This document shows, in pieces, positions 39,001 through 64,000 of a stretch of DNA of 64,000 nucleotides; within the stretch, counting starts at the first letter, position 1, and each line of letters starts with the position of its first letter. The DNA lies in contig JASCQW010000133.1 of assembly GCA_030264375.1 (NCBI GenBank), forward strand, positions 16,743,584 to 16,807,583, written 5' to 3'. Position numbers: made by a program. Source of the stretch: Carcharhinus longimanus (lineage: Eukaryota).

Positions 39001-42000
39001 CAGTCCAAGATGTGCGGGTTAGGTGCATTGACTGTGCTAAATTGCTAATAGAGGGATTAGCGGGTAAATCTGTGGGGTTATGGGGATAGGGCTGAGGTGG
39101 GACTGTTGTCGGTGCAGACTCGATAGGCGGAATGACCTCCTTCTGCACTATAGGGATTCTATAAGGTGCAACAACATTTTTAATTATTGCTGAACCTTTC
39201 TGCCACTGAAAAATTAATTTTACAAACTTGGAGATGTCATTGCCTCAGAATGTTTTAAAATTGCACGTTACAAAAAGAATAAAAGTTCTTTATTTATGAT
39301 ATTCCATTTTCTCCCATAATTTCATGTGTAATCCCAAATTTTTCAAAGTTCACTTTGTGTAATGATCGACGAATGAGTCATAATCCATAACTTTTACTTC
39401 CTTCTTTGCTGTATATGAGAATTNNNNNNNNNNNNNNNNNNNNNNNNNNNNNNNNNNNNNNNNNNNNNNNNNNNNNNNNNNNNNNNNNNNNNNNNNNNNN
39501 NNNNNNNNNNNNNNNNNNNNNNNTCAATCTGATTGGCTGCTCATCTTATTTGACGATGATACTGTTACCATATGGCACAGATCTCCAATAGATGGCTTCA
39601 AGTTCACCTCAGAATAGAGGCAGCTGATCAGTCTATTGAGATTTCAGTAGTTCCTTAGCCGTAAAAATCTGAGCAAAATGATACATTTACTATAAAGCAT
39701 ACGTCAAAAGCTCTTTGTTTTTTGATTAGAAAAAAATAATTTGAAGTAACAATTCTGATTAAGCATGTTTTCACTCTGCTGATATTTTTCTGAATAATTT
39801 TATATTTTACTAAATGCAATTTAGTAAAAATTACTCTTTTTTTAGTCTGAGCTGGTAATAATGCCCCGCATTTTCCATTTAGGGTTCGATTTTAATCTGG
39901 CAAAACAAATGCACACCTGCTTTCCTCCAATCTTCTGATGGAGGATCCTGCAGAACTCAGTCAGTGCAGAAGAGAGCAGCACAGATATTCAGAAGCCACT
40001 CTACCTTCTTTTATGGCATTAGCTGCTATATTCTGGTAAATAAAGAGTTTAAATTTCCCAGACTTCTTTGAAAAGCCAATGAGAAAAGTTTTGAGGGAAG
40101 GGGGTGCGGCGGAGGGGGGAGAGCAGAGTGGGTAAAGCAAGTGGATAGGAGGATAGGGTAGGGTGGGTGAGGCAGGTGGTAGGGAGGGGAAAACAGGGTA
40201 AGGGTGGATAAGGCAATGGGTAACAAGGTAGTGCAGGCAAGTGTGGGAAAGGGACATGGACACGTGGGTACCATGGGTGAGGGGATATGTTGGCAGGTAG
40301 TTCGGATGGTGAGGTCCGCATGGCGCCAGGCACTGGGGCTAGAGTCGGGGAATGAGGGGATAGTCAGGTTCAGTCAGGAGGGAGTCAGGGCAGCGGGTAG
40401 GTTGATGAGAGTATGGAAGAATCAAAAGAGAATCGGGGGTGTAATGCGATGGTGGGGTTCGTCAGATTGGGAAGGACAGGAGGATAGGGAGGAGTTAATA
40501 CCAGTGATTAGGGGGCGGGGGGTGGGAGGACTTCAGGTCTGCAGTTAGCCAGGTGTTAGATCAGTTTTTAATCTAACTCGGGGTGAGATTTTTTTTTCAG
40601 GGCGCTGGGGATTGCTCCATCGAAAGTTCAGACGTCCCGGGAATTCCCACGGGAAGACAATATATATTTAAATGGTCTGTCAAATTTTCCGACCCGCCAC
40701 GTATCCCGCGGCGGGCGGGACCGGAAAATTTATGCCAATGATTGGACGTTCCGAAAGGTCCAGTAGTGCATCTTATGAGGTCCGTCTGGTCTCTGAAGAT
40801 CCAGAGATCAGAGTATCTTGGCAATGTTTTCAGTTGATCCGGAGAGACGGGACAACTTGTCCATAATCTCTGAGCCACAGCCTAATGGAAGGGTTCATTG
40901 TTCGCTCTATGGCAATGCTAACTCAAGGTGATACATTAGGTAATTTCAATTGAAGGGAAGTGTGAGATCTCACATGAAAGCTGATTGCTGTGGTGACCGT
41001 AAAATAAAAGTATTGGGAAGTATCTGAATGGTGACAGAAAATTTCAAGCGCCAGTATAATCATAGCAAACCTTTGTGATTCTGCATATGGTAGAGTGGTT
41101 TTAAATTTTGCAGCAAATCATATGGTACTTGAAGAAATCTGGTTGTCCAGTCAAACACCACGCATTTTGCTTCCACCACCTTTGTTGCTTACCCACCCTT
41201 ACTCCAGCCGTGGTTAAATCCCATGGCCTCATTAAAGGATTTGGGGAAAGCCTTATTTTATCCTATAATGCACATTTTTTTATGGAAGAACGATGGATCT
41301 ATGGTGTTAGCGATGATAGTTGACTAATTGTTTGAGATATTTGATTATGACCAGAGTCATGGATGTCGAGGAGTTAAATAAAGCAACAACAACAAGTTAT
41401 ATTTCTGTAGTCCTTTAATAGTAAAATACCCTGATGCGTTTCCGCAAGCATATAAATCAGAATTAATTTGAGGCCCCGGCATTTAGAAATGCAAGCCTAA
41501 ACGTACTATTTATAAATATTTTCCGAAAGCTAACATTTAAGATCCGGGTACCCCTTGTTGGGAATACACTTCTTAAAAAAAAACTGTATTTTCTTCTGCA
41601 TTAATCTTTCTGTCTGTCCACCACTACCTATCTTTCTACCCATCAATTTTTCTCTGTCCTACATTCTTTCTCTCTAACCTCTCGCACGAACTCTCACCCG
41701 GATGTTTTCACATCCCTGATTTGTTTTTGATGTTTCTCCCTCTTTTGTTTGTTCCCCCCTTTTTCCATTAAAAATTGACTTTTTTTTACAAATATAAACA
41801 CGACCCGAATCTGATCCAGCTAAGAGTTGAAATGCTATTTACTTTGATGAAGGTTTTATCTAGTCAACTGTGCACATTTCCACAAGCATTACAATACTTG
41901 AATGTATGTCCTGGTGTTCCCTCTAAGGTGGAGAGTTTACTGTGGACTGAATCATTATAGGAGCTCATATTGCTGTAAAACAGTCCAGTTCCATTAATTT

Positions 42001-63000: not shown

Positions 63001-64000
63001 TTAATGTTTTCGACAGCACCTGCGTTACCACCTTATTTATGATCCACCTTTCATATTATTCTGGGCTACTCTGCAGGGTAGACTACAAACCATGTTAAGA
63101 GTATAATTCACTTCAATTTGTGGTAACTGACAAACAGCATATCAGTCAACAACGGGCAATATTATGATGCACTGTACTCTCGCTCGGTGCGAGATGTGCA
63201 ACATGTTTTGAACGTCAGTGCCTATTACACGAACAAAGACGGGAGTGTCGAAAGTTAAACGATCAGATATGAATTTTACTACATGGCCTTTGGTTCTTCA
63301 GTGATTTCTGAAAAGCACTTTTAATCCTTACTATCAATTTCTGCATTAGTACAGGTTATGCATTGAAGCTTTCTGATCGTCGGTAAAATGGGCCGAGACA
63401 AGACATGTGTCTACCAGAATCACATAAAAATTTACATCAGTTGTCTCAACAGTTAATCCCGGTGTACACCTCAGGCCATTTTTTGTGACCCTCCGCCCCC
63501 CCCCTCCAAATATTACAGACATGCAATTCTAATAACAAACCCCTGCTACCGGATTAAAACAATAATCTCACTCCATCAGGCCAATGATGAGTTATCAAGT
63601 GTTTTGTTCCAAGGTAAACGTATTTATTAAACCCAAAGTAATATGGACATCAAAAGCTGCACAACAAATAAAGCTACATTTTATATTTTAGGGGTATTCT
63701 GAAAAGTTGTCATTTTGCATACTTATAAGTATAGATTTATTAATGCATAAAGTGTAATAGCACAATACACTATCTATTACTTAATGCCACTATAATCTGT
63801 AGGTAATAACTTTCAAACTTAAATATTGGGTCACTTTTTTTAAAAAAGAATTAACCACACATTCATGTTGGAGCATCATTAAATTTCCTTTTGGATTTGA
63901 ATCACAGAGGCAAAATATTGAATGTTTAAACATTTAAGTTCTGGCCAACACAAATGAGAAAATATTGTCCTGGATATAATTCAAATATTTGTTTTTTATC

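What the first reader, a model, noticed from the sequence alone, without database searches (positions are those of the whole stretch)
40600..64000. A >23-kb AT-rich domain that has escaped CpG decay: candidate methylation valley next to an unseen developmental gene
Seen: CpG density rises sharply near 40.6 kb while the sequence stays AT-rich (19 CpG in 43861-44220 versus 1 in 35041-35400, hand counts). Repeats thin out, with no SINE recognised after ~54.6 kb. Established: large non-methylated domains in vertebrates surround developmental transcription-factor genes, and in cold-blooded vertebrates they are often missed by GC-based CpG-island callers. Inference: this is the edge of such a domain and its gene lies to the right of the window.
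[Added by the scan's program, not by the reader: the finding's places include an assembly gap (unread letters, written N; its length is only estimated) at 44197 to 44206, 50143 to 50179, 52227 to 52326, 59532 to 59707, 61971 to 61980. Whether the letters on both sides are continuous or in frame is not known: test that first.]
Basis: partly seen in the sequence, partly recalled or inferred. Interest (0 to 1): 0.65.

Follow-up and report, generated by a model that had tools for sequence, protein, structure and literature searches.

The report
Large CpG-preserving, probably unmethylated DNA domain
The right-hand third of this window is ordinary AT-rich, gene-free vertebrate DNA that has kept nearly three times more CpG sites than its neighbour, the footprint expected of a large stretch left unmethylated in the germ line, a known kind of feature whose associated gene cannot be seen from here.

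Summary
CpG observed/expected is 0.25 over 1-40599 and 0.67 over 40600-64000, at the same G+C of 0.408. Among the 16 dinucleotides only CG, and its decay products TG and CA, differ clearly. Each side is flat within sampling noise, so this is a plateau rather than a string of islands.

The signal does not depend on any assembly gap. All 6 gap-free pieces on the right are high (0.58-0.82) and all 7 on the left are low (0.20-0.40). The same SINE family lies on both sides. Its copies inside the domain keep more ancestral CpGs than copies outside at equal non-CpG divergence: 13 of 27 against 23 of 114 sites, and 16 of 51 against 34 of 238 under a second site definition. CpG decay was therefore slowed in place.

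No exon, Pfam domain, Rfam RNA or tRNA was found anywhere in the window.

Best reading: the edge and at least 23 kb of a germline-hypomethylated domain of the methylation-valley type. The "developmental gene to the right" is untested. This is a known kind of feature, of moderate-to-low interest.

The parts
1..38400 (.). Bulk, CpG-depleted flank (o/e about 0.25), SINE-rich: the comparison state
   Evidence: o/e 0.244 for 1-38000. All 7 gap-free pieces are at 0.20-0.40. Dispersion across 75 windows of 500 bp is 1.00. 16 SINE copies. 285 ORFs of 48 aa or more gave only 4 chance-level Pfam hits.
38401..40401 (.). Transition zone or shore. It contains the assembly gap 39424-39523 and a SINE copy at 38854-39164 with intermediate CpG retention.
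   Evidence: This is the 1.92-log-unit interval for the change-point. 38501-39423, left of the gap, is already at o/e 0.51 (19 CpG, P=0.0026 against the left rate), while 39524-40000 is at 0.33. The SINE there keeps 5 of 12 sites or 6 of 25.
40150..40560 (+). G-rich low-complexity block at the domain's left edge
   Evidence: Read directly from the sequence. It gives long spurious ORFs on both strands. It was not found as a repeat inside the window.
40603..40783 (.). Densest CpG cluster of the window; promoter-like (inference only). It has an imperfect palindrome and back-to-back CCAAT/ATTGG boxes at 40735-40745.
   Evidence: 24 CpG positions lie in this span (list). Inverted repeat 40682-40698 with 40714-40730, 76% complementary, with a perfect 10-nt outer pair. 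Sequence read. It is part of the largest island-like piece, 40241-40900 (G+C 0.52, o/e 0.74). No Pfam or Rfam match.
40402..64000 (.). CpG-retaining plateau (o/e 0.67, G+C 0.41), exon-free and repeat-poor. It runs off the right end of the window.
   Evidence: All 6 gap-free pieces are at 0.58-0.82, with P from 3.5e-9 to 5e-30 against the left rate; the longest uninterrupted piece is 52327-59531, 7,205 nt. Dispersion is 1.02 over 47 windows of 500 bp, with no correlation to local G+C (rho 0.07). 10 of the 11 island-like pieces of the window lie here. The last 2 kb are still at 0.69.
42807..43085 (+). SINE copy inside the domain
   Evidence: nhmmer E=7e-76. Keeps 6 of 10 ancestral CpG sites or 7 of 19.
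47704..47996 (-). SINE copy inside the domain
   Evidence: nhmmer E=1e-74. Keeps 4 of 9 or 4 of 19.
54350..54548 (+). Last SINE copy of the window, inside the domain
   Evidence: nhmmer E=3.5e-54. Keeps 3 of 8 or 5 of 13.

Best explanation
From about 38.4-40.4 kb to beyond the right end, the window holds at least 23 kb of native, non-coding vertebrate DNA in which CpG-to-TpG/CpA decay has run much more slowly than in the flank.

The most likely cause is that the stretch has been largely unmethylated in germ-line cells over evolutionary time. Unmethylated cytosines do not undergo the fast deamination of 5-methylcytosine. That would make it one edge of a DNA methylation valley (also called a canyon or broad non-methylated island), the kind of domain that in other vertebrates is kept methylation-free around developmental regulator genes, usually under Polycomb and TET control.

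Shown here: the CpG step, its flatness on each side, its independence of G+C and of the gaps, reduced CpG loss in inserted SINEs, repeat poverty, and absence of coding sequence.

Inferred: the unmethylated state, the Polycomb-type mechanism, and any link to a developmental gene, which would have to lie outside the window or consist of short exons without a recognisable domain.

My own rough equilibrium estimate: (1/0.67-1)/(1/0.25-1) is about 0.16. The SINE loss rates give about 0.3. Together they put the effective germline methylation load of the domain at roughly a sixth to a third of the flank's. That means strongly reduced, not zero.
For: 1. CpG o/e is 0.25 against 0.67 at equal G+C of 0.408. 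The likelihood-ratio statistic is 251. 1-kb windows do not overlap, p=3e-11.
2. Of 16 dinucleotides only CG (0.24 to 0.66), TG (1.34 to 1.17) and CA (1.30 to 1.19) shift clearly. This is the signature of methyl-CpG decay, and the background signature is otherwise the same genome.
3. In-place test on presumably neutral inserts. SINE copies inside keep 13 of 27 ancestral CpG sites against 23 of 114 outside (Fisher p=0.006). With sites defined from outside copies only, the figures are 16 of 51 against 34 of 238 (p=0.007), and the copy-level Mann-Whitney test gives p=0.012 for 3 against 15 copies. Non-CpG divergence is equal, 0.148 against 0.156.
4. Both states are internally homogeneous (dispersion 1.00 and 1.02), and the step spans 2 kb or less.
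5. Repeats are depleted: 11.3% against 4.2% self-repeat cover; SINEs 16 against 3, P=0.029.
6. All 6 gap-free pieces carry the signal, and the longest (7.2 kb) alone exceeds the 5-kb threshold for a valley (threshold from PMC5806489, and PMC8941758).
7. Literature, read as passages: valleys span 5 to about 60 kb, are hypomethylated in sperm, oocytes and primordial germ cells, and mix CpG islands with non-island DNA. Broad non-methylated islands occur in frog and zebrafish, where G+C-based island callers fail (PMC3583005). Transposon-free regions up to 80 kb mark developmental loci in fish and amphibians too (PMC2241635, abstract as shown in the listing).
Against: 1. No methylation data: the state is inferred from a mutational footprint only.
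2. Published valleys usually cover the gene itself. Here none of 258 ORFs of 42 aa or more has a credible Pfam domain; the best E-values, 0.0022 and 0.0083, are at chance level for that many tests. The 10 longest non-SINE ORFs give nothing below E=0.068, and every weak match scores under its family's cut-off. There is no codon periodicity (highest signal-to-noise 3.9 among 1,989 windows) and no Rfam family.
3. The plateau sits at 0.67, not near 1, and is flat. A classical valley built on a cluster of CpG islands would be expected to look lumpier.
4. SINE CpG retention inside is only 31-48%, so protection was partial, and it rests on 3 copies.
5. The boundary interval contains the 39424-39523 gap, so adjacency of the two states is not proven.
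6. No orthologous sequence could be compared, so conservation of the domain or of non-coding elements in it is unknown.
Confidence: 0.65

Rival explanations
1. A germline partially methylated or otherwise hypomethylated gene-desert domain with no tie to a developmental gene. Uniformly lowered, but not absent, methylation over a long gene-free AT-rich tract slows CpG decay evenly.
For: The plateau is flat and intermediate at 0.67, with dispersion 1.02 and no dependence on G+C. There are no exons. SINE CpG retention is only partial. Partially methylated domains cover large genome fractions in some vertebrate cell types, and chicken sperm has reduced global methylation (passages of PMC8941758).
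Against: The step is sharp, 2 kb or less. Repeats are depleted rather than enriched. 10 of the 11 island-like pieces of the window cluster here, including a 660-nt one at the edge. That such domains are usually repeat-rich and have gradual edges is my recollection, not a call.
Confidence: 0.15
2. The step is a scaffolding misjoin at the 39424-39523 gap. Two unlinked regions of the same genome, one methylated bulk and one CpG-retaining, were placed side by side.
For: The change-point interval 38401-40401 contains the gap. Continuity across the gap could not be shown, and the flanks share no repeat.
Against: The rise starts before the gap: 38501-39423 has o/e 0.51, P=0.0026. The SINE at 38854-39164, left of the gap, already shows intermediate retention. 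Even if true, the right-hand pieces remain CpG-retaining, so this changes the neighbour and not the feature. The same SINE family and the same dinucleotide signature lie on both sides.
Confidence: 0.1
3. CpGs are kept by purifying selection or a locally low mutation rate, as in a dense cluster of conserved non-coding elements, and not by lack of methylation.
For: The region is non-coding, repeat-poor and of the kind found around developmental genes (listing abstracts of PMC5585340 and PMC2241635).
Against: Retention is uniform over every 500-bp window rather than patchy. It extends to inserted SINEs, which are unlikely to be under constraint. Non-CpG divergence of those SINEs is the same inside and outside, 0.148 against 0.156, so the overall mutation rate is not lower.
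Confidence: 0.05
4. Foreign or young DNA that has not had time to decay: a contaminant, a mitochondrial insert, or a giant transposon or endogenous DNA virus.
For: A CpG o/e near 0.7 at 41% G+C would suit many unmethylated genomes.
Against: Three copies of the host SINE family, as diverged as those outside, sit within it. The dinucleotide signature other than CG, TG and CA is the same. The longest ORFs are SINE-derived, and 258 ORFs gave no credible Pfam domain. There are no tRNA or rRNA genes.
Confidence: 0.02

Closest known systems
DNA methylation valleys / canyons / broad non-methylated islands of vertebrates
   Same: It is longer than 5 kb, and its 23 kb or more lies inside the reported range of 5 to about 60 kb. 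It retains CpG without needing high G+C. It mixes island-like pieces with non-island DNA, has a sharp edge and is poor in repeats (passages).
   Different: No gene is seen inside it, whereas published valleys usually cover the gene. The plateau is flat at 0.67 rather than peaked. Methylation, Polycomb marks and orthology are untested.
Classical CpG island (200 bp or more, G+C at least 50%, o/e at least 0.6; criteria recalled)
   Same: o/e is above 0.6. Ten short pieces inside pass the criteria, the largest being 40241-40900.
   Different: The domain as a whole has G+C of 0.41 and is about 100 times longer than a typical island.
Transposon-free regions and regulatory blocks around developmental genes (PMC2241635, PMC5585340; listing abstracts only)
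   Same: Repeat cover falls from 11.3% to 4.2%, and no within-window repeat is found after 54640.
   Different: It is not transposon-free, since it holds 3 SINE copies. No repeat library was available, so single-copy transposon relics would go unseen. Conservation was not tested.
Partially methylated domains
   Same: A long, gene-free, AT-rich tract with a uniform intermediate CpG footprint.
   Different: It has a sharp boundary and is repeat-poor. Its length is unknown because it runs off the window.

Membership tests
DNA methylation valley / canyon / broad non-methylated island | Measured absence of CpG methylation across the region, including in germ cells and embryos | not testable with these tools
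   Only the mutational footprint is available: o/e 0.67 against 0.25, and SINE CpG retention of 13 of 27 against 23 of 114.
DNA methylation valley / canyon / broad non-methylated island | Length of at least 5 kb (PMC5806489; PMC8941758) | tested here: met
   The longest gap-free piece is 7,205 nt (52327-59531). The whole is at least 23.6 kb if the scaffold order is right.
DNA methylation valley / canyon / broad non-methylated island | Covers or abuts a transcription-factor or developmental gene | tested here: inconclusive
   None of 258 ORFs of 42 aa or more in 37.9-64 kb, and none of 285 ORFs of 48 aa or more in 1-37.9 kb, has a credible Pfam domain. There is no codon periodicity. The gene may lie beyond the window or have short exons without a recognisable domain.
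DNA methylation valley / canyon / broad non-methylated island | Contains CpG islands plus non-island DNA (PMC5806489) | tested here: met
   10 island-like pieces of 200-660 nt sit within otherwise AT-rich sequence.
DNA methylation valley / canyon / broad non-methylated island | H3K27me3/Polycomb or H3K4me3 marking, and conservation at the orthologous locus in other vertebrates | not testable with these tools
   No chromatin data and no vertebrate genome collection were on hand.
Classical CpG island | G+C of at least 50% with o/e of at least 0.6 over the feature (criteria recalled) | tested here: not met
   The domain's G+C is 0.408. Only short pieces pass.
Transposon-free region | No transposon insertion over 5-10 kb or more | tested here: inconclusive
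   Three SINEs lie in 40.4-54.6 kb. No repeat was detected in 54641-64000 by self-comparison. No repeat library was available.
Partially methylated domain | Intermediate, disordered methylation over roughly 100 kb or more (recalled) | not testable with these tools
   The flat intermediate o/e is compatible. Extent and methylation are unknown.

The most novel reading that the evidence does not exclude
The domain is not the skirt of a gene-covering valley. It is a free-standing, exon-free tract of 25 kb or more, held uniformly hypomethylated in the germ line of a large-genome fish. That would be a 'regulatory-desert valley', or the cover of an unannotated non-coding or short-exon developmental locus starting at the promoter-like CpG cluster at 40.6-40.8 kb. 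It would mean that protection from methylation can be set domain-wide, independently of CpG-island clusters and gene bodies.
Probability: 0.15. Interest if true: 0.55.

Novelty: new member of a known kind. Interest (0 to 1): 0.3.

Why it matters
If methylation data confirm it, this is a textbook-clean example of a large unmethylated domain readable from sequence alone in an AT-rich, cold-blooded vertebrate genome, where G+C-based island callers fail. Comparing CpG retention in same-family SINE copies inside and outside the domain separates a mutational (methylation) cause from selection. It could be applied genome-wide to map ancient germline-unmethylated domains in species that have no methylome. 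The flat plateau at 0.67 and the lack of any visible gene are the two aspects a specialist might want explained. Otherwise the feature is of a well-described kind.

Tried and rejected
- Six-frame Pfam scan by long DNA references: turned down because the translations contain stops. Replaced by scanning stop-free ORFs.
- Pfam on ORFs. The 258 ORFs of 42 aa or more in 37.9-64 kb gave only zf-CCCH_tandem (E=0.0022) and TMEM82 (E=0.0083). The 285 ORFs of 48 aa or more in 1-37.9 kb gave four hits at E=0.0023-0.0074. All are at chance level for that many tests. The ten longest non-SINE ORFs of the domain gave nothing below E=0.068. Exons shorter than 42 aa, or without a Pfam domain, would be missed.
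- Codon periodicity: no outlier, with a highest value of 3.9 among 1,989 windows.
- Rfam: 0 matches at gathering score in the whole window. At E up to 1 in 38-64 kb there were two matches: the tRNA-like head of a SINE scored as tmRNA, and a weak SNORA1-like match of 28 bits against a cut-off of 70. No tRNA genes.
- Tandem repeats do not explain the CpG excess. The right domain has only a (CA)13.5 run at 45099-45125.
- Strand skews show no consistent sign of germline transcription.
- Lineage: a protein search with the SINE-derived ORF 54313-54747 gave 5 unnamed hits and no organism names, and I did not use them. My impression that the SINE resembles families common in fishes, cartilaginous fishes among them, is recollection only. 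I did not take the contig for human: it has a tRNA-headed SINE of about 340 nt that is not Alu-like (recalled), and many gaps.
- Unchecked because no tool reaches it: orthologous loci, conserved non-coding elements and synteny. Supplementary tables of the methylome papers were closed and may list valley sizes and genes.
- Not run: the search of protein representatives, the protein atlas, structure tools and the complex tool. No ORF looked coding.
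Full report

Yes. Over 1-40599 there are 417 CpG in 39,673 read bases (observed/expected 0.25). Over 40600-64000 there are 644 in 23,068 (0.67). 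G+C is 0.408 on both sides. GpC stays at 1.00 and 1.03, while TpG and CpA fall from 1.32 and 1.31 to 1.19 and 1.18.

Among all 16 dinucleotides only CG (0.24 to 0.66), TG and CA move clearly, and the rest of the signature is shared. A two-rate model beats one rate by a likelihood-ratio statistic of 251. In 1-kb windows the two sides do not overlap: 37 left windows reach at most 0.484 and 24 right windows are at least 0.508, p=3e-11.

The best change-point is 38501, almost tied with 40301, and the support interval is 38401-40401.

**2. The gaps, tested first**

Nothing I claim is coding, so reading frame does not arise. None of the SINE copies used crosses a gap.

Continuity across the gaps cannot be shown from the sequence. 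Only the gap at 52227-52326 has matching C-rich low-complexity sequence on both sides. Several gaps abut G- or C-rich tracts, which looks like sequencing drop-out.

The signal does not depend on the joins. Each of the 6 gap-free pieces right of 39523 has o/e 0.58-0.82 (P from 3.5e-9 to 5e-30 against the left rate). Each of the 7 pieces to the left has 0.20-0.40.

On the misjoin question, 38501-39423 lies left of the 39424 gap and is already at 0.51 (P=0.0026). The SINE at 38854-39164 shows intermediate CpG retention. The boundary interval does include the gap, though, so a misjoin is not excluded. It would change the neighbour and not the feature.

**3. What the domain is made of**

It is native, non-coding DNA.
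- A tRNA-headed SINE family of about 340 nt has 20 copies in the window: 16 on the left, 1 in the transition zone and 3 inside the domain. Both sides therefore belong to one genome.
- None of 258 stop-free ORFs of 42 aa or more in 37.9-64 kb has a credible Pfam domain.
- The ten longest non-SINE ORFs give nothing below E=0.068.
- The left 38 kb is equally empty: 285 ORFs gave four chance-level hits.
- There is no codon periodicity anywhere, no Rfam family, no tRNA, and no tandem repeat that could carry the CpGs.

Contaminant DNA, a mitochondrial insert, or a giant transposon or endogenous virus are thereby rejected.

**4. Was decay slowed in place?**

I used the SINE copies as presumably neutral inserts of comparable age.
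- At 12 inferred ancestral CpG sites, copies inside the domain keep 13 of 27 and copies outside keep 23 of 114 (Fisher p=0.006).
- That site list was built with all copies. I repeated it with sites defined from the outside copies only (25 sites, probably including some false ones). The figures are then 16 of 51 against 34 of 238, p=0.007. The copy-level test of 3 against 15 copies gives p=0.012.
- CpG per 100 nt of SINE is 4.17 inside and 1.56 outside. Non-CpG divergence is the same, 0.148 and 0.156.

The difference is thus specific to CpG, arose after insertion, and is not a general drop in mutation rate or a result of selection on conserved elements. The weakness is that only three copies lie inside.

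**5. Shape of the signal**

Each state is flat. The dispersion of CpG counts around a constant ratio is 1.00 on the left (75 windows of 500 bp) and 1.02 on the right (47 windows). Inside the domain o/e does not follow local G+C (rho 0.07).

This is a plateau at 0.67, not a row of islands in methylated DNA. Even so, 10 of the window's 11 island-like pieces lie in it.

A simple equilibrium argument of my own gives (1/0.67-1)/(1/0.25-1), about 0.16. The SINE loss rates give about 0.3. Both suggest that the domain carried roughly a sixth to a third of the flank's methyl-CpG mutational load.

**6. Repeats**

Within-window repeat cover falls from 11.3% to 4.2%. SINEs number 16 against 3 (P=0.029). 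None lies in the last 9,266 bases, where 4.0 are expected (P=0.019). No repeat library was available, so single-copy relics are not counted.

**7. Comparison with what is known**

All papers below were read as passages unless stated.
- PMC5806489: methylation valleys are at least 5 kb, hypomethylated in primordial germ cells, sperm, oocytes and embryos, include CpG islands and non-island DNA, occur in zebrafish, and depend on Polycomb and TET.
- PMC3583005: broad non-methylated islands cover developmental genes in frog and zebrafish, and G+C-based island predictions fail in cold-blooded vertebrates.
- PMC5437953: a cartilaginous fish has the usual global vertebrate methylation, with hypermethylated transposons.
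- PMC2241635 (abstract as shown in the listing): transposon-free regions up to 80 kb at developmental loci, also in fish and amphibians.

My two searches that combined valleys with sharks or cartilaginous fishes listed no paper describing methylation valleys in cartilaginous fishes. That is no proof that none exists.

**8. Verdict**

The interpretation as a germline-unmethylated domain is the best explanation (0.65) and fits a known kind of feature.

The link to a developmental gene 'to the right' is untested. It sits a little uneasily with the absence of any gene in at least 23 kb, because published valleys usually cover their gene.

The main rival is a gene-desert domain of uniformly lowered methylation (0.15). 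A misjoin at 39424 (0.1) would not remove the feature.

Interest is moderate to low. The SINE-retention test is a useful general check, and the flat, gene-free plateau is the one aspect worth following up.

**9. What stayed unchecked**

Methylation, chromatin marks, contiguity across the gaps, the sequence beyond 64 kb, orthologous loci and conserved non-coding elements were not checked. The organism was not established either; the lineage hint is recollection only, and one search gave no names.

Noticed in passing
window 40603-40783: The densest CpG cluster of the window looks promoter-like. It has an imperfect palindrome (40682-40698 with 40714-40730, with a perfect 10-nt outer pair), back-to-back CCAAT and ATTGG boxes at 40735-40745, and an AT run at about 40660-40673. 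It has no ORF, Pfam or Rfam match. Whether it is a transcription start site is untested.
   Followed up: partly
window gaps at 1288, 3964, 25483, 50143, 52227: These assembly gaps abut G-runs or C-rich low-complexity tracts. The 52227-52326 gap has C-rich sequence on both sides. They look like sequencing drop-outs rather than joins of distant contigs.
   Followed up: partly
window 40150-40560; also 3.4-4.2 kb, 6.6-7.0 kb, 14.4-15.1 kb: G-rich or C-rich low-complexity blocks give the longest ORFs of the window (up to 241 aa at 14418-15143). The products are proline- and glycine-rich and not protein-like. One such block sits exactly at the domain's left edge.
   Followed up: partly
window 47190-47308 (+): A weak H/ACA snoRNA-like match to SNORA1: 28 bits against a gathering score of 70, E=0.5. 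It is probably chance.
   Followed up: no
window 9237-10663 and 15131-15390: The only mildly CpG-richer spots in the depleted left flank. The first piece has o/e 0.40 (P=0.016). The second is the single island-like piece on the left, 260 nt with o/e 0.81.
   Followed up: no
window 55008-55349 (+): A 114-aa ORF whose tail reminded me (recollection only) of the C-terminal part of Tc1/mariner transposases. Pfam finds nothing at E up to 1, so this is unsupported.
   Followed up: yes
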